Positions 44,075-56,938 of a DNA stretch of 64,000 nucleotides are shown here, in pieces. Location of the stretch: assembly GCA_009784895.1 (NCBI GenBank), contig WQXJ01000004.1, forward strand, positions 3,193 to 67,192, written 5' to 3'. This DNA comes from Micrococcales bacterium (GTDB lineage Bacteria > Actinomycetota > Actinomycetes > Actinomycetales > WQXJ01). The translations under genes and the position numbers were made by a program. Numbering within the stretch: the stretch's first letter is position 1; each line of letters opens with the position of its first letter. The notes beneath the pieces were generated by a model. It was given only the letters and a program-made list of their open reading frames with translations, was not told where the DNA came from and made no database searches.

Positions 44075-45274
44075 TTGGCAAATCTGGCTCGAAAACGATC
44101 ACCAGGGCGCGCTTCGCTTAGGCCGGGTTCTGCCCGCGCGGTCGTTGGGACAACTGACGTGACCCACCACCCCGGACCGTCCGTTAGTGCGGCTGTCCTG
44201 CTGCTGACCGAGCGCCTTGAGCCGCTAATACGCCGCAGGCTAGAACCGATGCTGGGCTCTGCGCCGTGGACTGATGCCCTGGTGGAGCTCGACCGGGTCA
44301 GGGGCTGTGAGCCGGTCACATTTGAAGCCAATGACCCGAAAGCCCAGCTGCGGCTGGTAACCGAACGGCTAGGCCAGCTGGGGTACCCGTTCGAACCCGA
44401 CGATGGCCACGGGTCGGTAACCAATTCGGGCCTGGCCCTTCGAGTGACGGTTTGCCGTTTGGCTCAAGGCAGCCAGTTCACCGCACCCGAGGCTTGGCGG
44501 GCCTACGACCTGGTCCGCCAACTGCTCGACGCACTGGGCGATAGTGAAGGTGCCGTCGCGGCCTCGACCGGCCAGGCTGCCTTGGTCGAGTTGGCCAGCG
44601 AACAAGAGGGTCTGACCTTGGATGAGATCCGGGGGCCGGAACTAGTGAACCTGCCGGCCAAACCTCGGTCGAAAAGAAAGGAGCCAGACCAGCCCGTTGT
44701 GCCGGCATCGGAAGTCTGGGATCTCCCGTTTGACAGCCTCAAGCGGCTGATTGGCCGCCGCCGCCCTGCGTTCGAACCGTGGGTGGCGGTACCCGTTGGT
44801 CAACCAGATCAGCTTTCCCGAACCGACCAGCCAGCCGTCAGAGACCAAATTAGGGCTCTGGCCCTGGAAATCGCCAAGTTCGAAGGCCCCATTCACGTCC
44901 ACCGGTTGGCCACCCTGATCGCTCACTCGTTCGGTGTGCCCCGCCTGTTCCCAAAGCGCTCGGTCGATATCACCGACCAGATCCTCCTGACCCAGGGCCT
45001 CGAGGTTGACGTAGACGACTTCATCTGGCCATTTGCCGTCGACCGGGTGGGCTGGCGCCAGTTCAGGCCCAATGATTCAACCGTCGACCGCCCGGCCTGG
45101 GCCATCAGCCCGGTTGAGATCGCCAATGCGGCCGAGTTTTGGCTGGAGCGATCGGTTGGAGGCAGCGACCTGGAAGGGACTATTCTGCGAACCTTTGGCC
45201 AACACCGAGCCAGTCGAGACAACCGCAGGCACATCCGCTTGAGCATCCAAGACCTGGCCCTGGCCCACGCCTGA
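44075..45274 (+). CDS. DUF3320-like domain protein with an N-terminal helical domain resembling a degenerate Swt1-like HEPN; divergent partner of the giant helicase
   Basis: The C-terminal half (ALEIAKFEGPIHVHRLATLIAHSFGVPRL...DFIWPFAVDRVGWRQFRP...ILRTFGQHRASRDNRRHI) aligns by eye with the giant protein's C-terminus (VSEEGPVVADRLIRIVAARFGIGQM...DSIAWPAGVDPPSYAGFRVP...TFARTASAFGVQMDSEARQRL). The ORF opens at TTG 44075. GTG 44159 is a likelier start. Confidence 0.65.
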   Translation: MANLARKRSPGRASLRPGSARAVVGTTDVTHHPGPSVSAAVLLLTERLEPLIRRRLEPMLGSAPWTDALVELDRVRGCEPVTFEANDPKAQLRLVTERLGQLGYPFEPDDGHGSVTNSGLALRVTVCRLAQGSQFTAPEAWRAYDLVRQLLDALGDSEGAVAASTGQAALVELASEQEGLTLDEIRGPELVNLPAKPRSKRKEPDQPVVPASEVWDLPFDSLKRLIGRRRPAFEPWVAVPVGQPDQLSRTDQPAVRDQIRALALEIAKFEGPIHVHRLATLIAHSFGVPRLFPKRSVDITDQILLTQGLEVDVDDFIWPFAVDRVGWRQFRPNDSTVDRPAWAISPVEIANAAEFWLERSVGGSDLEGTILRTFGQHRASRDNRRHIRLSIQDLALAHA

Positions 45275-47023: not shown

Positions 47024-47290
47024 TCATCGGTTTCGGTTGTAAATGTCGCGGCGGTGGCCCACCGCGATCACTAGTACCACCAGAATGTCGTTTTCGATCT
47101 GATAGATGACCCTGTAGTCGCCGGTGCGCACGCGCCAGGCGCCTTTGACACCGGCCAGTTTGATCGCGCCGGGCGGGCGGGGCGCGGTGGCTAAAAGATC
47201 AATCGCCACCTGGACATGCCGACGAGCGGCTAGGTCGAGCTTGGCCAACTGTCGCTGAGCCCGACCGGTCAGCTTGACCCGGTAGTTCAT
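47024..47290 (-). CDS. relE: RelE/ParE family toxin
   Basis: 88 aa. MNYRVKLTGRAQRQLAKLD...AWRVRTGDYRVIYQIENDILVVLVIAVGHRRDIY is the classic RelE/ParE pattern. It overlaps the antitoxin stop by 4 nt. Confidence 0.85.
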   Translation of the reverse strand: MNYRVKLTGRAQRQLAKLDLAARRHVQVAIDLLATAPRPPGAIKLAGVKGAWRVRTGDYRVIYQIENDILVVLVIAVGHRRDIYNRNR

Positions 47291-47550
47291 TCCAGACCTA
47301 GATCAGCCTTGACCTGCTCCCATGGCACCGGATCCTCCCCGGCAGCCATTTCCTTGCGGGCGGCCTTGACCTGCTCCAGGTCCGCTTGGTCCTCCGCCGC
47401 CGCGATCAGGCGGTCTAAATCCGACGCGTCAATTACGGCCGCCACCCGGCGCCCTCGCCGGGTCAAGTAAACCGGCTCATGGTCCACCCGGGCAGCGTCA
47501 ACCACATCAGCCAGCCTGGCCCGGGCGGCCGTTACCGTCATCTCGCTCAC
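47287..47550 (-). CDS. yefM: Phd/YefM family antitoxin
   Basis: MTVTAARARLADVVDAARVDHEPVYLTRRGRRVAAVIDASDLDRL. Start is either GTG 47550 or ATG 47541. Confidence 0.85.
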   Translation of the reverse strand: MSEMTVTAARARLADVVDAARVDHEPVYLTRRGRRVAAVIDASDLDRLIAAAEDQADLEQVKAARKEMAAGEDPVPWEQVKADLGLE

Positions 47551-47557
47551 GCCCGCG

Positions 47558-47597
47558 AGTATAGCGCTGAAGCCGCGGTTTTGTACAGAACAGTACT
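47558..47597 (-). promoter_or_regulatory. Candidate yefM-relE promoter/operator: TATACT -10-like box plus two GTAC-core palindromes
   Basis: On the minus strand, TATACT (47563-47558) lies upstream of the start codon. TGTACA (47582-47587) sits 18 nt further upstream at the -35 position. AGTACT (47592-47597) is centred 10 bp from it. YefM-type operators in E. coli are recalled to use TGTACA cores. Confidence 0.35.
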
Positions 47598-47653
47598 TGC
47601 CCGATGTCGCGTGCCCGGCTCAGCCGGTCTCTCCCCCGGGTGTTGCGGGCGTA
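47594..47653 (+). repeat. 60-bp palindromic dispersed element, copy A (identical to copy B)
   Basis: tacttgcccgatgtcgcgtgcccggctcagccggtctctcccccgggtgttgcgggcgta. It folds as an imperfect hairpin (TAC/GTA, GCCCG/CGGGC, CCCGG/CCGGG arms). Confidence 0.85.
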
Positions 47654-47778: not shown

Positions 47779-49200
47779 CTAGTCCGGGGCAATGGCCACC
47801 GAAACCTTGGCCTCGCCATCGATCGCGAAAGCGTTGACTTGGCCGCCCGGCCAGCGGATGCGTTGGGTCAGGGCAACGTCGTCGTCGACAAAGACTTCAA
47901 TCAGGTCACCCTCTAAGACGACGTGGACGGTTGCCGAGCCGGAATCAGCTTCCGGCGACCTCTTCGCGCAGGCCAAGGCAGGCCCATCGACCTCACGGTA
48001 GCTTGAACCCGTCCCGGTCAGGTCTGCCCAAAAGTCGTCCAAAGGCTGGGGTTCCTGGGTTATCCGGACCAGGCGACGGCGGTTGTCAACCAGGATTCGG
48101 TACGCCGTTTCCCCCGTCACCAGGTCGATGCCAACGGCGGCGGCATCTACAGCCTCGAAAGTGGCCTTGATGACGGTATTTCGGGGCACTTCAGCTTGTG
48201 CCACAGCCCCACCAAACATGCCCGGGGCGCCCAGCTGGACCTCCAAGAACTGATCGAAAGCCGGGTCGCCGACAACTGGCCTGACACCCATCCACTGCCC
48301 AGATTCGTCCGGCCGAAGAACCCGGTTCAGGGCAAAGTCCCCGCCCCAGAGCCAGCGCGGCCCCGCCTCGGTGTTGACCCGGTCGTGGATCCAGCCAAAA
48401 AATGCCCGGCCGTGCTCGAAGGGAGCCGATTTCGCCGCGTACCAACGCCGCCCGCCGAGCTCCTCACGCAGGGGTGTGCGGAAAGGACCGCGAGGTGAGT
48501 CAGCGACTCGAAATACCGTGCCAGCCTGCTCGGAGAAGCGCGAATAGACCAGATACCACTTGTCGCCGAAAGGCCACAGCTCGGGGCATTCCGGACAGAA
48601 GGTTGTCCCCGGGGTGTAGAGCGGTTCTGTCTCCACCTCCCAGTGGATCAGGTCGTTGGATGTGGCCAAGGCCAAGGTGCCACCGTGCCACCGGCTCTGA
48701 ACCATTGATGCCTCAGACACCCTGGTAGCAACCAACATGAACCAACACTCTTCCACCTGGTTGAAGAACACGTAGGGATCACGCCAATCAACCTGGCTGA
48801 ACTGTGGTGGGGGGTACAGGATTGGGTTGTCCGGGTGCCGCTCGAAGTTGACCAGGTCGCGGCTTGTAGCCAGGGCGATTGTCTGCGGATTTGCCCGGTT
48901 GGTCGGATCGTGTGCGGTGTAGTACAGGTAGAAGATCCCGGCGTTTTCGACCACGGACCCGGTCCAGATTCCACCAGCGTCATACGTTCCCGGGCGGCCT
49001 GGAGCCAAGGCCGGTGCAAGCAGATCCCAGCTCTTCAGATCGGTCGACGCCATATGCTGCCAGGTGGTTGCGACCCGTTCTGGATAGTCCTGCGTGCCTG
49101 GTGGGGAGGAGAGGAAGAACAGGTGGACGCGACCATCGTGCGCAAACGGAATCGGGTCGCCCACCGCGGCGACTCCTGGGGGGCGTGCAATTCTCATCAC
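47779..49200 (-). CDS. Glycoside hydrolase family 32 protein (beta-fructofuranosidase/levanase-like), cytoplasmic
   Basis: GDPIPFAHDGRVHLFF (variant of the WMNDPNG block), WRDPYVFF (RDP motif), and FCPECPELW (EC motif). A C-terminal beta-sandwich region is present. No signal peptide. Confidence 0.8.
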   Translation of the reverse strand: MMRIARPPGVAAVGDPIPFAHDGRVHLFFLSSPPGTQDYPERVATTWQHMASTDLKSWDLLAPALAPGRPGTYDAGGIWTGSVVENAGIFYLYYTAHDPTNRANPQTIALATSRDLVNFERHPDNPILYPPPQFSQVDWRDPYVFFNQVEECWFMLVATRVSEASMVQSRWHGGTLALATSNDLIHWEVETEPLYTPGTTFCPECPELWPFGDKWYLVYSRFSEQAGTVFRVADSPRGPFRTPLREELGGRRWYAAKSAPFEHGRAFFGWIHDRVNTEAGPRWLWGGDFALNRVLRPDESGQWMGVRPVVGDPAFDQFLEVQLGAPGMFGGAVAQAEVPRNTVIKATFEAVDAAAVGIDLVTGETAYRILVDNRRRLVRITQEPQPLDDFWADLTGTGSSYREVDGPALACAKRSPEADSGSATVHVVLEGDLIEVFVDDDVALTQRIRWPGGQVNAFAIDGEAKVSVAIAPD

Positions 49201-49871
49201 GTGATCCTTTCGATCATTGGCAGGACGCGGGTGGCCAGGGACTGCCGGGCCACCACACGGACGGCGTTGGGCTGGTCAACCTGAGCCACCCAATTGGCGG
49301 CCGCCTCGGGTGTTTTGCCGAAGGCAATGTGCCGCCGCTCAAGCCAAGCCCGGCGCGAAGCGTCATTGGCCAAGCAGAACCAAGACTCCGCCAGCAGATC
49401 CCTGACTCTTGGCCACGGCTCCGCCTCATCGAGCAGGTAGTTGCCTTCCGCGATAATCAACCGGCAGCCGGGAACCACCGCGATCGCTCCCGCTACCGGT
49501 TGTTCGATTTCGCGGTCAAAGGCCGGCGCGTAGATGGTGTGATTGGTCTCTTCAAGGCAACGGCGTAGCAAGTTGAGGTAACCGAAACCATCGAAAGTCT
49601 CGATTGCGCCCTTTCGCTGCAGCCGGCCCAAACGCACCAATTCGACATCAGCCAGGTGGAAACCGTCCATGGGGACAACGCAACAAGGAAGGCCGGCAGC
49701 ACAAAGGTCCGCGGCCATCGCGCGTGCCAGAGTTGTCTTGCCCGAGCCTGGAGCACCAACGATTCCCAAAACGGCGCGGCTTGTTCTTGGCAAGCCGGCG
49801 GCCCGGGCCAGCACTTCATTGGCCAACTCCACTCCCAAGAGCCCGGCGGTTTGACCTTCAGCGCCAGACAT
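49197..49871 (-). CDS. P-loop nucleoside/sugar kinase family protein (FrcK-like)
   Basis: Walker A GAPGSGKTTLARAM and a PRK/uridine-kinase-like fold pattern. The ATG at 49871 was chosen because the ORF's upstream 101 aa overlap the epimerase gene in another frame. Confidence 0.6.
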   Translation of the reverse strand: MSGAEGQTAGLLGVELANEVLARAAGLPRTSRAVLGIVGAPGSGKTTLARAMAADLCAAGLPCCVVPMDGFHLADVELVRLGRLQRKGAIETFDGFGYLNLLRRCLEETNHTIYAPAFDREIEQPVAGAIAVVPGCRLIIAEGNYLLDEAEPWPRVRDLLAESWFCLANDASRRAWLERRHIAFGKTPEAAANWVAQVDQPNAVRVVARQSLATRVLPMIERIT

Positions 49872-50739
49872 GATTTGCCGTCGCCTCAAGGTGAGCCTCA
49901 ATGAAGGCGTGTGCGTGTTGCGCCAATGCGAAACCGTCATCCCACAGGTCGCGCCAAATCGCCAAATCAGTGGAAAGCCCCTTGGCCACAACAGTCGAGG
50001 AAAACGACTCAAAGGTGATTGGCCCCAAGTAGCTGACGCCACGCAGTGCGTGAAAGAAACCGGTGAAGTCAACATGCCCCGAGCCAAGGTGGCCACGGTG
50101 GTTTTCTCCAACGTGGACGTAGCCGAGGCGATCTCCAGCTGCCACGACAGGGGCCACAAAGTCGTCTTCCTCAATGTTCATGTGATAGGTGTCGAGGTGG
50201 AGGTAGACGCCGTCCTCTCCAATGGCGTCAATCAACCGCAAGGCTTGGGCGGCTGTGTTGACACAATTCGTTTCGTAGCGATTGCAGACCTCGATCCCCA
50301 GCGAGATTCCAAGCGTCTGGGCTTCTTGGGCCAGCTCCTTGATAACGGATGTGGCATTGGCGATTCCCCTGGCCGTAACTGGCCTAGGGTATTTGCCCAA
50401 GGCGCCGTACAAGGCCCCGGTGTACAGCGTCGCGCCCATTCCAGCCGCGGCCTGAATGGAGTCTCGCAACAGGCCGGCGCCACGCTCGACCACAGCCGGG
50501 TCGTCGCTTGATGGGTCAGCGTCAAAGGTGAGGCCCCGTGAGCAGACCAGTTGCAGGCCAGCCTGTTCCAGTTTGGCCTTGGTCCTGTCCGTGTCAAGAC
50601 GGCCCAGATCATGGAGCGACAACTCGAGAATGTCATAGCCCGTGCCTTTTGCCCCAGAAATCGCCTCGTCAATTGACCCGTCACTGGTGTCACCTGCAAA
50701 GACGAGCGCGTGGATGCCAAGCTTGTTGGTCGGATTCAT
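49858..50739 (-). CDS. Ketose 3-epimerase (D-psicose/D-tagatose 3-epimerase family, xylose-isomerase-like TIM barrel)
   Basis: Collinear with Agrobacterium DPEase as recalled: IEVCNRYE, NTAA, LHLDTYHMNIEEDDF, LGYVHVGENHRG, FESF, IWRDLW. All four metal-ligand positions (E/D/H/E) are present. Confidence 0.85.
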   Translation of the reverse strand: MNPTNKLGIHALVFAGDTSDGSIDEAISGAKGTGYDILELSLHDLGRLDTDRTKAKLEQAGLQLVCSRGLTFDADPSSDDPAVVERGAGLLRDSIQAAAGMGATLYTGALYGALGKYPRPVTARGIANATSVIKELAQEAQTLGISLGIEVCNRYETNCVNTAAQALRLIDAIGEDGVYLHLDTYHMNIEEDDFVAPVVAAGDRLGYVHVGENHRGHLGSGHVDFTGFFHALRGVSYLGPITFESFSSTVVAKGLSTDLAIWRDLWDDGFALAQHAHAFIEAHLEATANHVWR

Positions 50740-51722
50740 GTCTCTACCTGACGTTCGGCCGACCCGACGTCGAGCCTGTCAATCAACCGGCAAATCTCGG
50801 TCACCACCCGAGCACCGTCCACGCCATCCATGACCCTGGCTGGTGACCCTGCCGCCGCTCCTAGTATGGTGCGGCCGCGCTCTGGTCCATCGCAAGTGTC
50901 GATGGCCACGCGAACCTCACGCCATGAGCCGGTCGTTGGCTCGGCCGCCGCCATCATGGCCAGTGGGTCATAGAGCACACACCCGTGAGAGAGGTCAAAC
51001 ATGGGATGAGCCAAGTAGGTTCGGCAGACTTGGTGGAAGATCCGGCCCACTGGCCCTCGTTGCCCCACCATCTCGAGCTGGGCCGGCGTTAGGACCAGTC
51101 CGGTGTCCGGGTTCGTCACGTCCAAGCCGACATAGCTGACCGGAATGCCGCTTCTGAGAACGGTTTCGGCAGCCAGAGGATCGAAGTAGATGTTGCATTC
51201 GGCCTGATCGGTGATGTTGCCGCCACCGTAGCGCTGGTGCAGCCCGAAGGCACCCCCCATCGCCACAACGCCTGGGATAAGCTCAGCCAGACCTGGATCC
51301 TCAAGCAGCGCCGTTGCCAGGTTGGTTTGCGGGCCGATGGCGACAACGGTCACCTCGCCAGGGTTGTCTCTGATCACCTTTTTGATCAACTCGGCCGCTG
51401 GCCCATAATTCGGCGCTTTGGGCAGCGCCACCTCACCCTCGCGGCCCCTGGGTCCGCGGTAGGCCTCTACCAGTATTGGGCTGAGTTGGCCTGCCACCGG
51501 CTCCGAGCTGCCAAAAGCCACCGGAACATCCAGCCGATCTGCAGCCTGCAGAACAGCTAACGCTCCTCTGGCGGAGAGCTGCGGCGGACAATTACCAAAG
51601 GTCGTCGTCACCGCCAGCAGCTCCAGGTTCGGGTGGGCCAGAGCCAGCAGTAAGGCAATCGGGTCGTCGGCGTCAGTGCCGGGGATGCCTACTCCCGGAT
51701 CGGTGTCAAGCAGGATCTTCAT
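50736..51722 (-). CDS. Nucleoside hydrolase (IUNH) family protein with an atypical N-terminal Asp motif
   Basis: MKILLDTDPGVGIPGTDADDPIALLLAL. The canonical DxDxxxDD cluster is interrupted by a ~7-residue insertion. The rest is collinear with the IUNH fold. Confidence 0.75.
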   Translation of the reverse strand: MKILLDTDPGVGIPGTDADDPIALLLALAHPNLELLAVTTTFGNCPPQLSARGALAVLQAADRLDVPVAFGSSEPVAGQLSPILVEAYRGPRGREGEVALPKAPNYGPAAELIKKVIRDNPGEVTVVAIGPQTNLATALLEDPGLAELIPGVVAMGGAFGLHQRYGGGNITDQAECNIYFDPLAAETVLRSGIPVSYVGLDVTNPDTGLVLTPAQLEMVGQRGPVGRIFHQVCRTYLAHPMFDLSHGCVLYDPLAMMAAAEPTTGSWREVRVAIDTCDGPERGRTILGAAAGSPARVMDGVDGARVVTEICRLIDRLDVGSAERQVET

Positions 51723-52515
51723 CAGTTCTCTCTAGGGTGTCTTGGGCTATTCCGCCCGAAAGCGAGACGGCTCCGGTCATGATGGCGACCGCGTCAGCTG
51801 ATGTATGCGTTGTGGGCCGGATGATTCCGGCCAACTGTCCAAGTCGCAGGATCTGGATGCGGTCGGCAACATCAAACACATTGGGCATGTTGTGGCTGAT
51901 CAGAATGATGCCCAGACCTGAATCCCGCAGTTGTTTGATGACCTCAAGCACCTGCGCGGTCTCGCGGACACCGAGTGCTGCAGTCGGTTCGTCCAGAACC
52001 ACGACTCGGCTGCCAAAGGCCACCGCCCGGGCGATGGCTACTGCCTGGCGCTGGCCCCCCGAAAGCGTTTCGATCAGCTGGGTAATGTCTTGGATTGTCC
52101 GTATGCCTAGTGCCTTGACCTTCTGCTCGGCCAACCGGCGCATTTCCTTGTGGTCGAGTAGACGGAATACCGAACCCAACGGACCTTTGCGCCTTACCTC
52201 CCGGCTCAAAAACAGGTTCGTCGCGATGTCCAACCCAGGCGCCAGAGGAAGCGTCTGGTAGACAGTCTCAATGCCCATGTCTCGGGCGTCTTGCGGCCGC
52301 CGTAGGTGGACGATGCTTCCGTCTAACTTGATGGTGCCGACATCGGCGCTTTCCGCGCCCGTGATGCACTTGATAAGAGTCGACTTGCCAGCCCCGTTGT
52401 CGCCGATGATGGCCAGCACTTCACCTGGGAAGAGATCCAGGTCAACGCCGTCAAGAGCAACAACCGGCCCATAGGTTTTGACCATACCCCTAGCGCTGAG
52501 AATTGCCTCGCTCAT
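51706..52515 (-). CDS. Sugar ABC transporter ATP-binding protein (FrcA-like)
   Basis: GDNGAGKSTL Walker A, LSGGQRQ signature, VVLDEPT Walker B. The ATG at 52515 overlaps the permease TGA (ATGA). Confidence 0.88.
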   Translation of the reverse strand: MSEAILSARGMVKTYGPVVALDGVDLDLFPGEVLAIIGDNGAGKSTLIKCITGAESADVGTIKLDGSIVHLRRPQDARDMGIETVYQTLPLAPGLDIATNLFLSREVRRKGPLGSVFRLLDHKEMRRLAEQKVKALGIRTIQDITQLIETLSGGQRQAVAIARAVAFGSRVVVLDEPTAALGVRETAQVLEVIKQLRDSGLGIILISHNMPNVFDVADRIQILRLGQLAGIIRPTTHTSADAVAIMTGAVSLSGGIAQDTLERTDEDPA

Positions 52516-53552
52516 CTCGACTCCCTGCTGTCGCCTCGGATCCATTGGTCCAATGCCACCGCTCCGAGAATCAGTAGGCCCACCGCCAGCGTCTGGTACA
52601 GCACATCGAGCCGGGCCAATGACAAGCCATTCCTAAAGACGCCAACCGTCACGGCTCCCAGCAATGTCCCCGAGAGCCGGCCTCGGCCCCCGAAAAGACT
52701 GGTCCCGCCTATCACCACGGCCGTGATGGAATCGAGGTTGACATCTACAGCGGTCGAAGTGGTGGCGGCGTTGTTTCGACCGATCAGGATCCAGGCCGAT
52801 AGCACTACCAGAAAACCGGCCACAACGTAAACGCTTAGAAGCACCCGTTTGGTTCGCACGCCAGTCAGTCTGGCGGCGGTTTCGTCACTGCCAACGGCGT
52901 AAACACGTCGACCCCAGGCGGTGTTGTTGAGAACAAAGGCCATGACTAGGTACATCGACAGCATCAAAGCCACGCCGGTGGTGAACTGGAACGGTCCAAT
53001 GGCGAATGCGTTTGAGGTCCAGGTCAAGAAGGAACCAAGGTTTTCGCCTTGGATCGACCTGCCGTGCGACATCAGCAGGGCCAACGCGGTGAACACGCTG
53101 AGGGTGCCGAGGGTGGTAATGAACGGTGGCAGCCTGATGTAGGCGACCAGGGCGCCGTTGGCCAGCCCGGCGGCGATGCCGACAAGCGCGCCGCCCAGAA
53201 AGGCCACAGGGCTCGGTAGCCCCGCCTCCCCGGCCAGCGCGCCCATCGCCATCGATACAAACACCATTAGGGCCCCCACCGACAAGTCGATACCTGCTGT
53301 GAGAATGACAAGCGTCTGGCCCACCGCCAGGGCGCCTATTACGGCGACCTGCTGCAGGATCAGCGAAAGGTTGCTTGGCAACAAGAACCTGTCGCTGACC
53401 AGACCAAACACCACCGTCGTGATGACCAACACCGCTAGCGGACTGATTTGCGGGTAACGATGAAGCAGCCGTCGCAGTCGCTGCATCAGAGTCAGCGGAC
53501 GCTGCCGATACACCTCGGCCGCGGTTAGTTCCGCCAACTCCGGCTCAGCCAT
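52512..53552 (-). CDS. Sugar ABC transporter permease (ribose/fructose type, FrcC-like)
   Basis: 346-aa polytopic protein with ILTAGIDLSVGA and the typical RbsC/FrcC-family layout. Confidence 0.85.
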   Translation of the reverse strand: MAEPELAELTAAEVYRQRPLTLMQRLRRLLHRYPQISPLAVLVITTVVFGLVSDRFLLPSNLSLILQQVAVIGALAVGQTLVILTAGIDLSVGALMVFVSMAMGALAGEAGLPSPVAFLGGALVGIAAGLANGALVAYIRLPPFITTLGTLSVFTALALLMSHGRSIQGENLGSFLTWTSNAFAIGPFQFTTGVALMLSMYLVMAFVLNNTAWGRRVYAVGSDETAARLTGVRTKRVLLSVYVVAGFLVVLSAWILIGRNNAATTSTAVDVNLDSITAVVIGGTSLFGGRGRLSGTLLGAVTVGVFRNGLSLARLDVLYQTLAVGLLILGAVALDQWIRGDSRESR

Positions 53553-53585
53553 TGGCCTTTCCCCTCACAAATCAGACCGGATTGG

Positions 53586-54680
53586 TCAGTAGCAGGATGC
53601 TAGACCTTCAGCAACGGAAATTGATTCGACGCCAGGCTGCGGCTGGTCGGTAACCAGCGTGATGCCAGTGTTAATGAAATCGGCTCCGGCCGGAGTCACA
53701 GGTTTTTCGCCCGTTTTGGCGAAGTTGACCACGGCTTCAACGCCCATTGAACCCATTTTGCTTGGGTACTGCTGCGCGTCGGCGCCAAAGATTCCATCCG
53801 CCACACCCTTGATGCCGTCACATGACCCATTGATTGAGACCACGATGGCCGAGGTGTTGCCTGCTGCCTTCAGCGCCTGGTAGGCGCCAAGCGCTGCAGG
53901 TTCATTCGGCGTGTAGACAACATTGATGTTCGGGTTCAAAGAGAGGCACTTTTCCATTGCTGTGCGACCGCCATCTTCGGCGCCATCGGTCGCTTCATTG
54001 CAGACAATCTCGTAGTCCCCGCCAGAGTAGGTGCCTGTCTGGTCCTCGTCGGCGTTCTTGTTGGGATCCTTGACGTCAATGCCCATCCCTTCAACAAAGC
54101 CTTGATCGCGCTCGTAGTCGATGCCAACGACCTTGTCTGCAAAGAGGTCCAGCAAGGCGATGGTGGCCTTCTCGCCGTCGAGTTTGGCGGCAGTCCATTG
54201 GCCAATCAGCTTGCCCGCCAGTCGGTTGTCGGAGGCAAAGGTTGCCGAGACCAGGTCCGGCGGTGTGGTCGGAGTATCAACCGCCATCACAATCAATCCG
54301 GCGTCTTGGGCCTTGGAGATGGCATCGTTGACGGCCGGGCCGTTGTTGGCAATAAGAATGCCGGTGTCTCCGCGGGTGATGGCATCTTCGATTGCCCGGA
54401 TTTGACCGTCGGCGTCAGTCTGGTCACGACCGGAGGCAAGGGTGATTTCTGCACCCAGCTCTTCGGCTTTGGCTTTGGCGCCGTCCATCATGGCAACCCA
54501 GAATGGGTCATTTGGGTCTTTCGTGATTAGTGTGATCTGAATTGTCTCGCCCTTGTCACCGGCGGGGGCAGAGGCGTCTGTGCCTCCATCACCGGAACAC
54601 GCGGCCAGGCCCAGTGCCAACGCCGCTACTAGACCGAGCGTCGCCATTTGCTTAGAGCTTGTCTTTGTAGGCAGAGTCAT
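53586..54680 (-). CDS. Sugar ABC transporter substrate-binding lipoprotein (FrcB-like, periplasmic binding protein type I)
   Basis: Lipobox GLAACSGD and the ITLITKDPNDPFWVAM pattern. AGGAG RBS at 54686-54690. Confidence 0.85.
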   Translation of the reverse strand: MTLPTKTSSKQMATLGLVAALALGLAACSGDGGTDASAPAGDKGETIQITLITKDPNDPFWVAMMDGAKAKAEELGAEITLASGRDQTDADGQIRAIEDAITRGDTGILIANNGPAVNDAISKAQDAGLIVMAVDTPTTPPDLVSATFASDNRLAGKLIGQWTAAKLDGEKATIALLDLFADKVVGIDYERDQGFVEGMGIDVKDPNKNADEDQTGTYSGGDYEIVCNEATDGAEDGGRTAMEKCLSLNPNINVVYTPNEPAALGAYQALKAAGNTSAIVVSINGSCDGIKGVADGIFGADAQQYPSKMGSMGVEAVVNFAKTGEKPVTPAGADFINTGITLVTDQPQPGVESISVAEGLASCY

Positions 54681-54697
54681 TGTCGCTCCTTATGTTG

Positions 54698-54779
54698 GTG
54701 CTAGCACAGGATTGTGCTTACGACACAGGCTAGCCAGGTTATGACTTTGGGAACAAGGGTTATGCTTTTTGATAGCATA
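54698..54779. promoter_or_regulatory. Divergent frcB/rok control region with two palindromes; candidate operators
   Basis: The perfect 10-bp palindrome GTGCTAGCAC (54698-54707) lies just upstream of the frcB RBS. TATGCT-n7-AGCATA (54761-54779) lies just upstream of the ROK gene start. Confidence 0.3.
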
Positions 54780-54784
54780 TCCCC

Positions 54785-56005
54785 GTGGATAGGCCAACAC
54801 CCCAGGTGGGGTCATCACCCGCCACCTGGCTGAGAACAACCCCAGGCGAGCTCCTCGACATCATTCGGCACGAAGACCGGCCCATCACCAAGCTTGAACT
54901 GGCCAAGCGGACAGGGCTTTCTCGCAGCGCAGTGACCCAACGTGTTTCTTCGCTGCTCAACGCGGGATTGGTGATACCAACCAGACACCTCGCTGAAGAC
55001 ACCGGCGGGCGACCGGCCGAACGCTACGCCGTAAATCCGAATTGGGGCGTCTCCCTTATTGCCGACACAGGCGCCACGGGCATGCGCACCGCCGTCTGCG
55101 ACTTGTCGGGGCACCTGCTCAATGAACACTTCGACTGGATTGACATCACCCAAGGACCGGATGCCATTCTCGGAGCCATTTCGAAGCGCTTCAGTTCGCA
55201 TCTGGTCAGCCGAAGGCTTTCTCCCGGTCACGTTAGAGGCATAGGCATCAGCGTCCCAGGCCCGGTCGATGCCCGAACCGGCCGAGTTGTCAGTCCACCG
55301 ATTATGACCGGATGGCATGACTACGACATTCCAGGCTTTTTTTCCGCCCAATTTGACTGCCCGGTCACAGTCGAAAAGGACACCAACGCAATGGTCTACG
55401 GGGCTTTTCGATCGTCAACTGCCGCGGAACAGAACATGGTCTTCGTCAAGGTCGGCACCGGGATTGGCGCCGGGCTGATGCTCTCAGGTCGGCTCTATCG
55501 CGGAGCCGATGGCGCCGCTGGTGACGTCGGTCATACCCGCCTTGACTCAGCCGGCGAGGTAGCGCCGGCATGCCGCTGCAACAACCTCGGCTGCGTCGAA
55601 GCCTACGCCGGAGGCTGGGCCATACTACGCGACCTGCAGGCGGCTGGGGTTGAGGTCTACACCATCGATGAATTGGTCAAAGCCGTCCATGAGGGCAACG
55701 CTGAAGCCCGAGCCATGGTCCTAGAATCCGCCAGCATCATCGGCACGGCAGTCGCGCACCTGGTCAACATGGCTAACCCAAGGGCCGTTGTTCTTGGTGG
55801 GCAACTGGTTGGCCTGGGCGATCTTGTCCTCGCGACGGTCCGCGAGCAGGTCTACAGGCTTTCGTTGCCCTTGGCGACTCGTAACCTCACGATCACAACC
55901 TGCGAACTACCTAACCCCGGGGTACTGGGCCTGGCGGCCCTGGTCTCGGACCTCGTGCTTGGGCCAGATAACGTCGACCGCCTTTTGGCTGACCGGCGTG
56001 GCTGA
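54785..56005 (+). CDS. ROK family transcriptional regulator
   Basis: N-terminal wHTH ITKLELAKRTGLSRSAVTQRVSSLLNAGLV. ROK domain with the Zn motif GHTRLD...CRCNNLGCVEAYAGG. The GTG start at 54785 is uncertain. Confidence 0.88.
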   Translation: MDRPTPQVGSSPATWLRTTPGELLDIIRHEDRPITKLELAKRTGLSRSAVTQRVSSLLNAGLVIPTRHLAEDTGGRPAERYAVNPNWGVSLIADTGATGMRTAVCDLSGHLLNEHFDWIDITQGPDAILGAISKRFSSHLVSRRLSPGHVRGIGISVPGPVDARTGRVVSPPIMTGWHDYDIPGFFSAQFDCPVTVEKDTNAMVYGAFRSSTAAEQNMVFVKVGTGIGAGLMLSGRLYRGADGAAGDVGHTRLDSAGEVAPACRCNNLGCVEAYAGGWAILRDLQAAGVEVYTIDELVKAVHEGNAEARAMVLESASIIGTAVAHLVNMANPRAVVLGGQLVGLGDLVLATVREQVYRLSLPLATRNLTITTCELPNPGVLGLAALVSDLVLGPDNVDRLLADRRG

Positions 56006-56101: not shown

Positions 56102-56857
56102 ATGGCAGGGAGACTACAAGGCAAGGCTGTTTTGATCACGGGCTCGGCCACAGGCATCGGGGCTGCCGTTGCTAAGAGGATGGCCAAGGAAGGCGCCCAG
56201 CTCATGCTGGGGTACCACAACACGCCCAATGACGGGCTGGTGGCCGAGATTAGAGCCAGCGGCGGGGTTGCCGATCGGGTTCGGATCGACGCCACAAACG
56301 AGGAAGACTGCCGGGCCGGAGTGGCTGCGACCCTCGAAGAATACGGTCGGTTGGACGTGGCTTTCAACAACCACGGTGTCTTGCCCCGGGGCGGTTTGCT
56401 ACATGAATGTCCTACTGAGGAGTTCGACTGGACCATCGCCGCTAATCTCAAAGGCGTGTTCTTGATGATGAAACACGAGGTACCGGCGATGCTGGCGTCC
56501 GGCGGCGGTTCGATCATCAACACCGCCTCGTTGGTTGGCATCACGGCCGATCCAATGACTACGCCGTATGTGGCTGCGAAACATGGCGTGGTTGGCCTGA
56601 CCAAGGGCGCCGCCCTGGACTACGCCCAACAGGGCATTAGGGTGAACGCCATCGCGCCAGGCTTGACCGAAACGGCCATGGCCAGACCCATCATGAATGA
56701 AGCCGGCTTCAGCGAGGCCATCAAGACCAGGAACCCGATGGGTCGGATTTCTCAGCCGGATGAGCAGGTTGGAATGGTCATCTACCTGGCCTCAAACGAA
56801 TCGACCTTTACCACCGGCCAGACCTTTCTAGTCGACGGTGGGCAAGCGGCCCACTAG
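56102..56857 (+). CDS. SDR family oxidoreductase
   Basis: TGSATGIGAA cofactor motif, NNHG, and the YVAAKHG catalytic YxxxK. Confidence 0.88.
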   Translation: MAGRLQGKAVLITGSATGIGAAVAKRMAKEGAQLMLGYHNTPNDGLVAEIRASGGVADRVRIDATNEEDCRAGVAATLEEYGRLDVAFNNHGVLPRGGLLHECPTEEFDWTIAANLKGVFLMMKHEVPAMLASGGGSIINTASLVGITADPMTTPYVAAKHGVVGLTKGAALDYAQQGIRVNAIAPGLTETAMARPIMNEAGFSEAIKTRNPMGRISQPDEQVGMVIYLASNESTFTTGQTFLVDGGQAAH

Positions 56858-56878: not shown

Positions 56879-56938
56879 TACTTGCCCGATGTCGCGTGCC
56901 CGGCTCAGCCGGTCTCTCCCCCGGGTGTTGCGGGCGTA
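56879..56938 (+). repeat. 60-bp palindromic dispersed element, copy B (identical to copy A)
   Basis: 60/60 identity with 47594-47653. It starts 22 nt after the SDR stop and contains the last 10 codons and the stop codon of the convergent lacI-family gene. Confidence 0.85.

What the first reader, a model, noticed from the sequence alone, without database searches (positions are those of the whole stretch)
47779..56005. Seven-gene coupled operon combining FrcABC-like transport, an atypical nucleoside hydrolase, a ketose 3-epimerase, an FrcK-like kinase and a cytoplasmic GH32: possible ketose-glycoside or ketose-nucleoside catabolism
Seen: all seven minus-strand genes are separated by 33 bp or less, or overlap (ATGA junctions at 52512/52515, 50736/50739 and 49197/49200). 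A divergent ROK regulator and two palindromes sit in the control region. The epimerase has all DPEase/DTEase hallmarks (IEVCNRYE, LDTYHMNIEED, HVGENHRG, FESF). The IUNH-family protein has its DxDxxxDD calcium/ribose motif split by an insertion (DTDPG-VGIPGTD-ADD), suggesting a non-standard substrate.

Inference (speculative): the steps could be uptake, N- or O-glycosidic cleavage, psicose/tagatose-to-fructose epimerisation, then phosphorylation. That would fit salvage of a psicofuranosyl nucleoside (psicofuranine-like) or a rare-ketose fructoside rather than plain fructose. I know of no described pathway with this exact gene set.
Basis: inference. Interest (0 to 1): 0.55.

Follow-up and report, generated by a model that had tools for sequence, protein, structure and literature searches.

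The report
Rare-sugar (psicose) glycoside breakdown operon
A seven-gene operon, conserved in several bacterial phyla, most likely imports small glycosides of the rare sugar psicose and of fructose, splits them with an unusual nucleoside-hydrolase relative and an unusual GH32 enzyme, and turns the psicose into fructose. The real substrate is unknown, but this would give rare-sugar epimerases a natural job.

Summary
Seven tightly coupled minus-strand genes (47779-54680) lie next to a divergent ROK regulator gene.

The backbone matches the Sinorhizobium meliloti fructose uptake locus frcR|frcBCAK. Two modules have been added: an atypical nucleoside-hydrolase homologue (IUNH*) with a ketose 3-epimerase, and an atypical cytoplasmic GH32 (GH32*).

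IUNH* belongs to a well-defined subfamily:
- It keeps the Ca/ribosyl-binding residues.
- It has two insertions near the active site.
- It has lost both leaving-group histidines.

In 25 of 30 genomic loci this subfamily sits next to a ketohexose 3-epimerase. The epimerase is of one of two unrelated kinds: a free-sugar D-allulose 3-epimerase type, or AlsE with an AlsK-like kinase. None of about 55 ordinary IUNH loci shows this.

Operons with the epimerase, kinase and ABC genes but no IUNH* are common and use a different binding protein. IUNH* therefore looks like a feeder enzyme that releases D-psicose from an imported conjugate.

The aglycone is unknown. Psicofuranine is the only known natural candidate. 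No biochemistry exists, and I found no paper linking these families.

The substrate remains open.

The parts
53586..54680 (-). FrcB-type substrate-binding lipoprotein (CUT2 family). It belongs to the clade specific to IUNH*-bearing operons.
   Evidence: Pfam Peripla_BP_4 scores 124 bits. The N-terminus has the lipobox LAAC. It is 49% identical to S. meliloti FrcB and 47% to an annotated frcB. It is 57-81% identical to the binding proteins of other IUNH*-bearing operons across phyla, but only 24-28% identical to those of IUNH-less epimerase operons.
52512..53552 (-). FrcC-type ABC permease.
   Evidence: Pfam BPD_transp_2 scores 109 bits. It is 45% identical to S. meliloti FrcC and 65-78% identical in orthologous operons.
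51706..52515 (-). FrcA-type ABC ATPase with a single nucleotide-binding domain. The start at 52515 overlaps the permease stop codon (ATGA).
   Evidence: Pfam ABC_tran. It is 59% identical to S. meliloti FrcA. Orthologues are 263-283 aa long.
50736..51722 (-). IUNH*: an insertion-type nucleoside-hydrolase homologue, the proposed psicofuranosyl (ribo-hexofuranosyl) glycoside hydrolase.
   Evidence: Pfam PF01156 scores 222 bits, but the protein falls below all the RihA, RihB, RihC and UriH equivalog cut-offs. It has a 7-aa insertion in DxDxxxDD and a 6-aa insertion before GNIT..AECN. His82 is replaced by Arg/Ala and His239 by Tyr251. D6, D8, D19, D20, N44, N169, E175, N177 and D252 are kept.
49858..50739 (-). 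Ketose 3-epimerase of the D-allulose/L-ribulose 3-epimerase clade.
   Evidence: Closest PDB entries are 7cj4-7cj9, 8yeb, 5zfs (D-allulose 3-epimerase) and 3vyl, with E-values from 1e-77 to 1e-63. The metal ligands are invariant. Pfam AP_endonuc_2 scores 126 bits.
49197..49871 (-). FrcK-type P-loop kinase (PRK/uridine-kinase/pantothenate-kinase fold). It is the presumed ketohexose kinase, or possibly a ketofuranoside kinase.
   Evidence: NCBIfam NF006743 scores 239.6 bits against a cut-off of 227. PDB 3c8u, labelled 'fructokinase', matches at 6e-29. It is 36% identical to S. meliloti FrcK. It follows the epimerase in many IUNH-less operons and precedes GH32* in L179.
47779..49200 (-). GH32*: a cytoplasmic, divergent GH32 hydrolase. 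Its signature is A[AG]D[AP]IP / HLF[HYF]L / RDP / PECP / GRRWYAAK.
   Evidence: Pfam GH32N scores 105 bits. The best PDB match is 1uyp at 2e-21. The catalytic Asp, Asp and Glu are conserved. The Asn of NDPNG is replaced by Gly, the Gln of FYQ by Leu, and DFYA.Q by RWYAAK. There is no signal peptide.
54681..54784 (.). Divergent control region. It contains a promoter-like TTGTTC-n18-TAGCCT (54756-54727, minus sense) with the conserved box AAAGTCATAA (54739-54748) in its spacer. It also contains the palindrome TATGCT-n7-AGCATA (54761-54779), the 5'-UTR hairpin AGCACA-ATCC-TGTGCT (54703-54718) overlapping GTGCTAGCAC (54698-54707), and the RBS AAGGAG (54686-54691).
   Evidence: The box [GA][GT]CATAA inside a TTGAC-type promoter recurs in 7 of 9 orthologous loci. 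The full palindrome recurs only in L027.
54785..56005 (+). ROK-family transcriptional regulator (FrcR-like), divergently transcribed.
   Evidence: Pfam HTH_24 plus ROK, 169 bits. It holds the same position in 12 or more orthologous loci at 43-54% identity and in the S. meliloti frc locus.
47594..47653 (+). Left copy of a perfect 60-bp direct repeat that brackets the operon, the ROK gene and an SDR gene.
56879..56938 (+). Right copy of the same 60-bp direct repeat. It overlaps the 3' end of a LacI-family gene.

Best explanation
This is a catabolic operon for small ketofuranosyl conjugates, built on a fructose-type (Frc) ABC importer.

Proposed route:
1. A specialised FrcB-type binding protein and the FrcCA transporter bring the conjugate into the cell.
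2. IUNH*, a nucleoside-hydrolase homologue, cleaves the bond at the anomeric carbon of a ribo-configured hexofuranosyl unit. This unit is most likely D-psicofuranosyl. Free D-psicose is released.
3. The ketose 3-epimerase converts D-psicose to D-fructose.
4. The divergent GH32* releases fructose from a beta-fructofuranosyl bond, either in the same substrate or in the C3-epimeric one.
5. The FrcK-type kinase phosphorylates the ketohexose, which enters glycolysis.
6. The ROK protein represses the operon until an inducer is present.

What is shown: the gene content, the family assignments, the active-site residue pattern and the cross-phylum co-conservation. What is inferred: every substrate, the order of the kinase and hydrolase steps, and the regulation. 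The aglycone is unknown. Psicofuranine/angustmycin C is the only natural psicofuranoside I could find.
For: 1.

2. The IUNH* clade is sharply defined. Of the 120 best homologues, 103 have the full insertion, 117 have YDP in place of HDP, and 117 have the second insertion. The Ca/cis-diol/5'-OH residue set is intact, but both leaving-group histidines are gone.

3. In 25 of 30 IUNH* loci a ketohexose 3-epimerase lies within about 5 kb. No such gene is found at about 55 ordinary IUNH loci (Fisher p = 6.5e-17).
- 14 loci have the AP_endonuc_2 epimerase. They come from Actinomycetota, Chloroflexota, Methylocapsa and Paraburkholderia.
- 11 loci have Ribul_P_3_epim proteins; those tested pass the AlsE equivalog cut-off, and the neighbouring ROK kinases tested pass the AlsK cut-off. 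They come from Bifidobacterium asteroides, Pantoea, Dryocola, Erwinia and Winslowiella.
- More distant clade members, at 41-43% identity, also sit next to AlsE-type genes.
- The only metabolite common to both routes is D-psicose or its 6-phosphate.

4. In a crude NJ tree the epimerase type switches at least three times inside the IUNH* clade. This looks like repeated non-orthologous displacement.

5. A search centred on the epimerase finds many ROK|ABC-epimerase-FrcK operons without IUNH* or GH32*. Their binding protein is only 24-28% identical to the one here. IUNH*-bearing operons share a binding-protein clade of 57-81% identity across phyla. IUNH* therefore behaves as a feeder enzyme with its own uptake specificity.

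6. In Enterobacterales a duplicated binding protein (63% identical to the first copy) is paired with IUNH*. In Erwinia sp. S63 and Pantoea sp. alder81 that pair stands without any of the other cluster genes within 10 kb.

7. The FrcK-GH32* pair also occurs without IUNH* (L179) and as a fused ORF (P0175).

8. The epimerase matches characterised D-allulose and L-ribulose 3-epimerases at E-values from 1e-77 to 1e-63.

9. Bacteria are known to sense D-psicose specifically, through the PsiR regulon of Rhizobiales (PMC7445875).
Against: - There is no biochemical or genetic test of any of these proteins.
- Natural psicofuranosides are very rare in the literature. Only psicofuranine and the angustmycins turned up. 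The operon, by contrast, is widespread and occurs in a bee-gut Bifidobacterium.
- The linked transporter types (CUT2 ABC, sugar-porter MFS, Gat-type PTS) usually carry monosaccharide-sized solutes.
- Five IUNH* loci show no epimerase within 10 kb: L014, L034, L028, L019 and L022.
- The enterobacterial clusters also encode a ribokinase-like PfkB.
- One locus, L091, carries RpiB, which would fit D-allose.
- The substrate of FrcK is unknown even in S. meliloti.
- The roles I assign to individual residues in IUNH and GH32 come from my memory of published structures. They were not modelled here.
Confidence: 0.5

Rival explanations
1. Generalist furanose scavenging. IUNH* is an ordinary ribonucleoside hydrolase. 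It sits in operons for ribose, fructose, psicose and allose only because these furanose-type sugars share transporters and regulators. The epimerase and GH32 serve other co-imported sugars.
For: All Ca/ribosyl-binding residues are conserved. The enterobacterial clusters include a protein that just reaches the ribokinase cut-off, at 299.9 bits against 299.65. The als systems of E. coli respond to ribose (quoted in PMC12216980). From my memory of Lambert et al. 2001, FrcB of S. meliloti also binds ribose.
Against: About 55 ordinary IUNH loci never show this context. Both catalytic histidines are lost and two insertions are fixed across the clade. The minimal clusters have no ribokinase: B. asteroides has AlsE, AlsK, IUNH* and an MFS transporter, and Paraburkholderia has the ABC genes, IUNH*, the epimerase and FrcK. 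The epimerase type has been replaced repeatedly while the linkage stayed.
Confidence: 0.15
2. Allose rather than psicose. IUNH* releases D-allose from an allofuranosyl or allosyl conjugate, at least in the AlsK/AlsE-type clusters. The sugar then enters the classical allose pathway: AlsK, then RpiB, then AlsE.
For: The neighbouring ROK kinases pass the allose kinase equivalog (338 and 360 bits against a cut-off of 253), and AlsE passes its own. Locus L091 carries AlsE, AlsK and RpiB together with the ABC genes and the hydrolase. Allofuranose also has the ribo cis-diol.
Against: The 14 loci with a free-ketose epimerase have no aldose-ketose isomerase, and a ketose 3-epimerase cannot use allose. 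Most AlsE-type loci lack RpiB nearby.
Confidence: 0.1
3. Kinase first. FrcK is a furanoside 6-kinase that acts like uridine kinase on a 5'-OH. It phosphorylates the imported glycoside. GH32*, and in the PTS or AlsK-type clusters possibly IUNH*, is then a phospho-glycosidase that releases fructose-6-P or psicose-6-P.
For: FrcK belongs to the nucleoside/pantothenate kinase fold and is not the fructokinase of S. meliloti. GH32* lacks the Asn and Gln that, from my memory of the T. maritima invertase complex, hold fructose O6. It also gains Arg-Arg..Lys in the DFYA region. FrcK and GH32* overlap, co-occur without IUNH*, and are fused in P0175. The Erwinia toletana cluster has a PTS, AlsE and IUNH* but no kinase.
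Against: The epimerase is a close relative of enzymes that act on free ketoses, so free psicose must be formed in this operon. The residues that bind the 5'-OH in classical enzymes are conserved in IUNH*. Many operons have the epimerase and FrcK with no glycosidase at all, which fits a plain ketohexose kinase.
Confidence: 0.12
4. The operon takes up only free fructose and psicose. IUNH* and GH32* are passengers or have non-hydrolytic roles such as anomer or ring-form conversion.
For: The backbone is a fructose transporter locus. The transporter families involved are of monosaccharide type.
Against: The catalytic residues of both hydrolases are strictly conserved. IUNH*-bearing operons have their own binding-protein clade. 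Translational coupling points to co-function.
Confidence: 0.05

Closest known systems
Sinorhizobium meliloti frcR | frcBCAK fructose uptake locus
   Same: It has the same order and orientation: a divergent ROK regulator, then binding protein, single permease, single-domain ATPase and FrcK-type kinase. Identities are 49%, 45%, 59% and 36%.
   Different: The window has IUNH* and an epimerase inserted between frcA and frcK, and GH32* appended after frcK. Its binding protein belongs to a separate clade. The role of FrcK is unresolved in S. meliloti (PMC10433430).
E. coli D-allose operon alsRBACEK (+ rpiB), and AlsE-dependent D-allulose use (PMC12216980)
   Same: Related IUNH* loci carry AlsE and AlsK equivalogs and a CUT2 ABC transporter. 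The end point is the same: fructose-6-P reached through 3-epimerisation of allulose-6-P.
   Different: The window uses a non-homologous free-sugar epimerase and a P-loop kinase instead. No described als operon includes a nucleoside-hydrolase homologue.
Group I nucleoside hydrolases (Crithidia IU-NH; E. coli RihA, RihB and RihC; plant NRH)
   Same: The Pfam family is the same, and the Asp cluster, Asn, Glu, Asn and Asp that bind Ca2+ and the ribosyl hydroxyls are conserved.
   Different: IUNH* has a 7-aa insertion inside DxDxxxDD and a 6-aa insertion before the GN.T..AE.N loop. His82 and His239 are replaced. Scores are far below the RihA, RihB and RihC cut-offs. The genomic context is different.
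Characterised ketose 3-epimerases (Arthrobacter globiformis D-allulose 3-epimerase 5zfs; 7cj4-9; 8yeb; Mesorhizobium L-ribulose 3-epimerase 3vyl)
   Same: It is a close homologue with all metal ligands.
   Different: Those enzymes were studied as biocatalysts. As far as I know, their natural role and gene context have not been described. Here the context suggests a role.
PsiR-regulated psicose operon of Rhizobiales (PMC7445875)
   Same: It is a dedicated bacterial system that responds to D-psicose, with a divergent regulator.
   Different: It uses a LacI-type regulator. The parts of the paper I read mention no glycosidase, and I did not inspect the full operon content.
GH32 beta-fructofuranosidases (Thermotoga maritima BfrA 1uyp; sucrose-6-P hydrolases)
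   Same: It has the N-terminal GH32 domain and the Asp/Asp/Glu catalytic triad, and is cytoplasmic.
   Different: NDPNG becomes AGDPIP, FYQ becomes F[FYH]L and DFYA.Q becomes RWYAAK. It is far below the BfrA and ScrB cut-offs. It forms its own clade, which includes ascomycete homologues.
E. coli frlABCD (fructoselysine/psicoselysine)
   Same: The logic is the same: a 3-epimerase brings the psicose form of a compound into a fructose-type pathway, together with a kinase and a bond-cleaving enzyme.
   Different: The enzyme families are different, and the chemistry is that of Amadori compounds rather than glycosides. The FrlC model scores only 27 bits here.

Membership tests
Inosine-uridine nucleoside hydrolase superfamily (PF01156) | Match to the family profile above the gathering score. 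| tested here: met
   The score is 222.3 bits against a cut-off of 34.2, covering profile positions 1-295 of 297.
Inosine-uridine nucleoside hydrolase superfamily (PF01156) | A contiguous N-terminal DxDxxxDD motif. | tested here: not met
   All four Asp residues are present, but a 7-residue insertion separates DTDPG from DD. The insertion is conserved in the clade.
Inosine-uridine nucleoside hydrolase superfamily (PF01156) | Residues that bind Ca2+ and the ribosyl hydroxyls: Asn39, Asn160, Glu166, Asn168 and Asp242 in Crithidia numbering (numbering from memory). | tested here: met
   N44, N169, E175, N177 and D252 are invariant in the alignment with RihA and RihB.
Group I nucleoside hydrolases (RihA, RihB, RihC, IU-NH) | The leaving-group histidines, His82 and His239/241. 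| tested here: not met
   The VHG histidine is replaced by Arg or Ala. HDP is replaced by YDP in 117 of 120 clade members, and none has HDP.
Group I nucleoside hydrolases (RihA, RihB, RihC, IU-NH) | Score above the NCBIfam equivalog cut-offs. | tested here: not met
   RihA scores 143 against 433, RihC 132 against 382, RihB-type 110 against 459 and UriH 102 against 450.
Group I nucleoside hydrolases (RihA, RihB, RihC, IU-NH) | Hydrolysis of ribonucleosides. | not testable with these tools
   This needs an enzyme assay.
Ketose 3-epimerase (D-allulose / D-tagatose / L-ribulose 3-epimerase) | TIM-barrel AP_endonuc_2 fold with the Glu-Asp-His-Glu metal site. | tested here: met
   The Pfam score is 126 bits. 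E150, D183, H209 and E244 are invariant in 13 orthologues.
Ketose 3-epimerase (D-allulose / D-tagatose / L-ribulose 3-epimerase) | Close similarity to characterised enzymes. | tested here: met
   E-values are 2e-77 for 7cj9, 1e-74 for 8yeb, 2e-74 for 5zfs and 1e-63 for 3vyl, over the full length. The protein is below the NF051856 equivalog cut-off (155 against 300). That model matches more distant DPEases.
FrcK / PRK09270 P-loop kinase | Score above the NCBIfam NF006743 cut-off, and a Walker A motif. | tested here: met
   The score is 239.6 bits against 227. The Walker A motif is GAPGSGKTT. Identity to S. meliloti FrcK is 36%.
FrcK / PRK09270 P-loop kinase | A known phosphoryl acceptor. | not testable with these tools
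   The acceptor is unknown for the whole family (PMC10433430).
Frc-type fructose ABC transporter (CUT2) | Gene order frcB-frcC-frcA with a single permease and a single-domain ATPase, a divergent ROK gene, and sequence similarity to S. meliloti Frc. | tested here: met
Frc-type fructose ABC transporter (CUT2) | Fructose as the transported ligand. | not testable with these tools
   The binding protein falls in a separate clade that travels with IUNH*. This hints at a different ligand.
Glycoside hydrolase family 32 | N-terminal five-bladed propeller domain profile, and the catalytic Asp (nucleophile), Asp of RDP and Glu of EC. | tested here: met
   GH32N scores 105 bits against 22.1. D14, RDP and ECPE are conserved in 11 orthologues and in 120 homologues.
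Glycoside hydrolase family 32 | The canonical fructosyl-binding Asn of NDPNG and Gln of FYQ. | tested here: not met
   They are replaced by Gly or Ala and by Leu across the clade.
Glycoside hydrolase family 32 | The C-terminal beta-sandwich domain (PF08244). | tested here: inconclusive
   There is no hit in the window protein. Several orthologues have weak or precomputed hits. No structure was predicted.
ROK-family repressor | An N-terminal winged HTH domain plus a ROK domain, with a divergent position. | tested here: met
   Conservation of the position is shown. DNA binding was not tested.

The most novel reading that the evidence does not exclude
IUNH* is the first ketofuranosidase built on the nucleoside-hydrolase fold. 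It would be a psicofuranosidase that cleaves natural psicofuranosyl compounds, for example the antibiotic and cytokinin psicofuranine (guvermectin) and the angustmycins, or a still undescribed common psicofuranoside from plants or microbes. That would make the operon both a detoxification route and a feeding route. Its broad distribution would then imply that psicose conjugates are a regular, overlooked carbon source in soil, on plants and in insect guts. It would also supply the long-missing natural role of D-allulose 3-epimerases.
Probability: 0.35. Interest if true: 0.8.

Novelty: new variant of a known kind. Interest (0 to 1): 0.62.

Why it matters
- Ketose 3-epimerases are workhorses of rare-sugar manufacture, but their natural function is essentially unknown. 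This context gives a testable role: salvage of psicose released from conjugates.
- The work defines a nucleoside-hydrolase subfamily whose active site keeps the sugar grip but has lost the base-handling residues. This predicts a new reaction for an old fold.
- It defines a GH32 subfamily, shared by bacteria and ascomycetes, with an altered sugar pocket.
- If the substrate is psicofuranine, now used as the plant growth regulator guvermectin, the operon would govern how long that compound persists in soil and would act as a resistance determinant.
- The AlsE-linked versions bear on which gut and plant bacteria can use allulose-type sugars.

Tried and rejected
1. Literature. Eight full-text searches found no paper that combines a nucleoside hydrolase with psicose, allulose, allose, a 3-epimerase or GH32. 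One badly chosen search returned only noise. The AlsE gut paper and the angustmycin biosynthesis paper mention no such hydrolase.

2. Operator. The full TATG[AC][CT]-n7-[AG][GT]CATA palindrome recurs in only one orthologue, L027. Only its half-site box is widely kept. GTGCTAGCAC is not conserved as a sequence.

3. The 60-bp flanking repeat. I tested whether it is a tRNA or a known RNA. ARAGORN and Rfam gave no match, its fold is no better than shuffled sequence, and there are no copies in the fetched loci.

4. GH32* dependence on IUNH*. I rejected it because L178 and L179 carry GH32* without IUNH*.

5. Amadori logic. I considered a fructoselysine-type pathway. I rejected it because nucleoside-hydrolase chemistry acts at the anomeric carbon and the FrlC model scores only 27 bits.

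6. Pentulose reading (ribulose/xylulose). I rejected it because the neighbouring phospho-epimerases pass the AlsE cut-off and not merely the Rpe cut-off.

7. Structure prediction and fold search were not run. The tools return no coordinates, so they could not place the insertions relative to the active site.

Full report
**What is there**

The window comes from a Micrococcales metagenome-assembled genome. The IUNH protein is 100% identical to a protein with that label.

Seven minus-strand ORFs run from 54680 down to 47779. They are separated by a 33-bp gap and then by overlaps of 4, 17, 4, 14 and 4 nt. A ROK regulator gene (54785-56005) is transcribed divergently.

The third, between the kinase and GH32, is GTGATGA. 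Both palindromes in the 104-bp control region exist.

**Family assignments**

- The binding protein is a Peripla_BP_4 lipoprotein. The permease is BPD_transp_2. The ATPase has a single nucleotide-binding domain.
- The IUNH protein scores 222 bits on PF01156 but falls far below all Rih equivalog cut-offs.
- The epimerase matches characterised D-allulose and L-ribulose 3-epimerases (7cj4-9, 8yeb, 5zfs, 3vyl) at E-values from 1e-77 to 1e-63. Its four metal ligands are invariant.
- The kinase passes the PRK09270/FrcK model (239.6 bits against 227) and resembles PDB 3c8u.
- The GH32 protein matches the N-terminal GH32 domain (105 bits). Its best solved relative, Thermotoga invertase, matches only at 2e-21.

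**The backbone is a fructose (frc) locus**

A tblastn search of the binding protein against plasmid records found the S. meliloti frc locus, on a chromosome-sized record labelled as a plasmid. Its order is a ROK regulator, then frcB, frcC, frcA and frcK, with frk and pgi nearby. This matches the published description (PMC10433430).

Identities to the window proteins are 49% (binding protein), 45% (permease), 59% (ATPase) and 36% (kinase). The operon therefore reads frcR | frcB frcC frcA [IUNH* epimerase] frcK [GH32*].

**The hydrolase is a distinct subfamily**

I aligned it with E. coli RihA and RihB and with solved plant enzymes.

What is kept:
- the Asp cluster (D6, D8, D19, D20)
- N44, N169, E175, N177 and D252, the set that holds Ca2+ and the ribosyl hydroxyls in classical enzymes (roles from memory of published structures)

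What differs:
- a 7-residue insertion inside DxDxxxDD
- a 6-residue insertion just before the GN.T..AE.N loop
- loss of both leaving-group histidines (VHG becomes [YW][RAQ]G, and HDP becomes YDP)

These traits are fixed in the clade. Of the 120 best homologues, 103 have the full insertion, 3 more have a GVPG variant and 8 have a shorter form. YDP is present in 117 and HDP in none. The second insertion is present in 117.

The sugar grip is kept. The parts that handle the base and the anomeric region are rebuilt.

**Context survey centred on the hydrolase**

Gene neighbourhoods came from individual look-ups, from a scan of one genome per species and from a plasmid search. I scored them with a panel of query proteins.

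Free-sugar epimerase type (14 loci):
- The same cluster, or a near copy, occurs in Actinotalea, Leifsonia aquatica, Cellulomonadaceae, Nocardioidaceae, Agromyces, Georgenia, Sphaerisporangium, a Chloroflexi MAG, Methylocapsa and Paraburkholderia.
- The Methylocapsa cluster has a LacI regulator and no kinase. The Paraburkholderia cluster has no GH32.

AlsE type (11 loci):
- The free-sugar epimerase and FrcK are replaced by a Ribul_P_3_epim protein and a ROK kinase. Those I scanned pass the NCBIfam equivalog cut-offs: D-allulose-6-phosphate 3-epimerase scores 291-377 bits against 271, and allose kinase scores 338-360 against 253.
- Bifidobacterium asteroides pairs them with an MFS transporter.
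- Pantoea, Dryocola, Acerihabitans and the Pantoea sp. At-9b plasmid pair them with an als-like ABC system.
- Erwinia toletana and Winslowiella pair AlsE and the hydrolase with a Gat-type PTS. Their ROK kinase lies in a second als-like cluster about 5 kb downstream.

More distant clade members (41-43% identity) show the same link (L031, L091, L092).

In total, 25 of 30 loci have a ketohexose 3-epimerase within about 5 kb. None of about 55 loci around ordinary IUNH genes (34-42% identity; Caulobacter, Rhizobium, Agrobacterium, Stenotrophomonas) does (Fisher p = 6.5e-17).

In a simple neighbour-joining tree the clade is monophyletic, and the AlsE-type context appears at three or more separate places in it. 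The tree has no bootstrap support, so this is indicative only.

Two unrelated solutions to one chemical step, converting psicose or psicose-6-P to fructose or fructose-6-P, keep being recruited next to this hydrolase. This is the main argument that its product is D-psicose. D-psicofuranose is, in effect, ribofuranose with an extra hydroxymethyl group on the anomeric carbon. That fits a conserved ribosyl grip with a rebuilt anomeric region. This last point is inference.

**Context survey centred on the epimerase**

A metagenome scan with an alignment of the epimerase shows that operons of the form ROK | binding protein-permease-ATPase-epimerase-FrcK, without IUNH* or GH32*, are common. In them:
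- the binding protein is only 24-28% identical to the one here
- the permease is 33-36% identical
- the ATPase is 44-49% identical

Only the two loci that also carry IUNH* and GH32* (L096, L100) have a binding protein 70-79% identical.

The binding proteins of IUNH*-bearing operons form one clade, 57-81% identical between Actinomycetota, Chloroflexota and Alphaproteobacteria. They are 43-49% identical to S. meliloti FrcB.

The link is therefore one-directional. The base module handles a free ketose. IUNH* is an added feeder that comes with its own uptake specificity.

Enterobacterales tell the same story in another way. A second binding protein, 63% identical to the first, sits directly before IUNH*. 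In Erwinia sp. S63 and Pantoea sp. alder81 that pair occurs without any of the other cluster genes within 10 kb.

**The GH32 partner**

Its clade keeps the nucleophile Asp, RDP and ECP. NDPNG is replaced by A[AG]D[AP]IP, FYQ by F[FYH]L and DFYA.Q by RWYAAK. The same signature is found in ascomycete homologues at 35-40% identity.

At least 29 of its metagenomic homologues share their longest-contig length with an IUNH* homologue. It also occurs without IUNH*. L179 has ROK | FrcK-GH32*-CUT2 ABC. L178 has two GH32* copies around an Frc-type transporter, plus a PfkB kinase. One ORF fuses the kinase and GH32* (P0175). Since the two genes overlap, a frameshift could also explain that fusion.

I read FrcK-GH32* as a fructoside module and IUNH*-epimerase as a psicoside module. 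Both converge on fructose.

From memory, the altered Asn and Gln hold fructose O6 in the Thermotoga complex, and the DFYA Asp shapes the +1 site in plant invertases. The changes therefore leave room for an alternative order, in which FrcK first phosphorylates the glycoside. I list this as a rival.

**Regulation**

Orthologous ROK-frcB intergenic regions share a TTGAC-type promoter with a box [GA][GT]CATAA in its spacer (7 of 9 loci). The window's TATGCT-n7-AGCATA palindrome is a duplicated, inverted version of that box. It has a full counterpart only in Sphaerisporangium viridialbum (TTATGAC-n7-GTCATAA). GTGCTAGCAC overlaps a short 5'-UTR hairpin. The position of this hairpin, but not its sequence, recurs in six other loci. 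Binding by the ROK protein is inferred only.

**What remains open**

No enzyme here has been tested. The aglycone is unknown. In the library I searched, the only natural psicofuranosides are psicofuranine and the angustmycins.

The transporter families involved usually carry monosaccharide-sized solutes. However, nucleoside ABC permeases belong to the same permease family (from memory).

D-allose cannot be excluded for the AlsK-type loci, since L091 also has RpiB. A ribokinase-like gene in the enterobacterial clusters keeps the plain-ribonucleoside reading alive.

FrcK has no known substrate even in S. meliloti. I found no paper linking nucleoside hydrolases with psicose, allose or 3-epimerases. 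A psicose-responsive LacI regulon is known in Rhizobiales (PMC7445875). AlsE-dependent allulose use is known in enteric and gut bacteria (PMC12216980).

**Verdict**

The specific substrate is not established.

This is a new variant of a known kind of system, a glycoside utilisation operon. It contains two uncharacterised enzyme subfamilies and offers a plausible natural role for rare-sugar epimerases.

Noticed in passing
window 47594-47653 and 56879-56938: A perfect 60-bp direct repeat with sharp edges brackets a 9.2-kb segment that holds the whole operon, the ROK gene and an SDR gene (56102-56857). The right copy overlaps the 3' end of a LacI-family gene. The repeat has only these two copies in the window and no tRNA or Rfam match. 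A public short-read assembly has a contig of exactly 9285 bp carrying the GH32 gene, which is what a break at the repeats would give. The repeats could be att-like scars of an inserted islet, but no integrase is inside.
   Followed up: partly
window 54703-54718; same position in L001, L006, L012, L021, L023, L025: A short GC-rich hairpin lies between the promoter-like site and the RBS of the binding-protein gene. It is present at the same place in orthologous loci with different stem sequences. This suggests a conserved 5'-UTR structure rather than a DNA operator. No covariation statistics were run.
   Followed up: partly
P0217-P0240 (homologues of window 47779-49200): Ascomycete fungi (Saitoella, Aspergillus, Talaromyces, Pseudogymnoascus, Diplodia and others) encode homologues 35-40% identical to GH32*. 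Most have the same unusual signature (ADAIP, H[LVI]FHL, RRWYAAK). This uncharacterised GH32 subfamily therefore spans bacteria and fungi.
   Followed up: partly
P0175 (Frankiales MAG, contig 10482 bp): A 718-aa ORF fuses the FrcK-type kinase and GH32*. It could be a real fusion. It could also be a frameshift at the overlapping stop and start codons.
   Followed up: no
L101, L105 (metagenome loci): Some IUNH-less operons carry two ketose 3-epimerase paralogues in tandem, 38-43% and 61-63% identical to the window enzyme, placed before FrcK.
   Followed up: no
L013, L090, L093 (Pantoea and relatives); L019, L022: The enterobacterial clusters have two paralogous binding proteins, 63% identical to each other. 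The second is always directly upstream of the hydrolase. In Erwinia sp. S63 and Pantoea sp. alder81 only that pair is present, with no transporter nearby.
   Followed up: partly
L009 (Sphaerisporangium sp. NBC_01403) versus L027 (S. viridialbum): In L009 the operon looks decayed. The binding-protein and permease genes are missing and the ROK gene is cut to 159 aa. The sister species keeps the intact cluster.
   Followed up: no
L004 / L030 (Erwinia toletana, Winslowiella arboricola): Two LPMO_10 genes sit between the PTS-AlsE-hydrolase cluster and a second als-like cluster (ABC genes, AlsE, ROK kinase, PfkB) in the opposite orientation. Together they form a small allulose/allose island.
   Followed up: no
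window 47024-47550: A ParE toxin / Phd-YefM antitoxin pair lies immediately beside the left repeat copy.
   Followed up: yes
window 35838-43829 and 44075-45274: A 2663-aa protein with DUF4011, superfamily-1 helicase (AAA_11/AAA_12) and MTES_1575 restriction-endonuclease-like domains is followed by a DUF3320 protein. It may be a defence-type or DNA-processing giant. It is unrelated to the operon.
   Followed up: no
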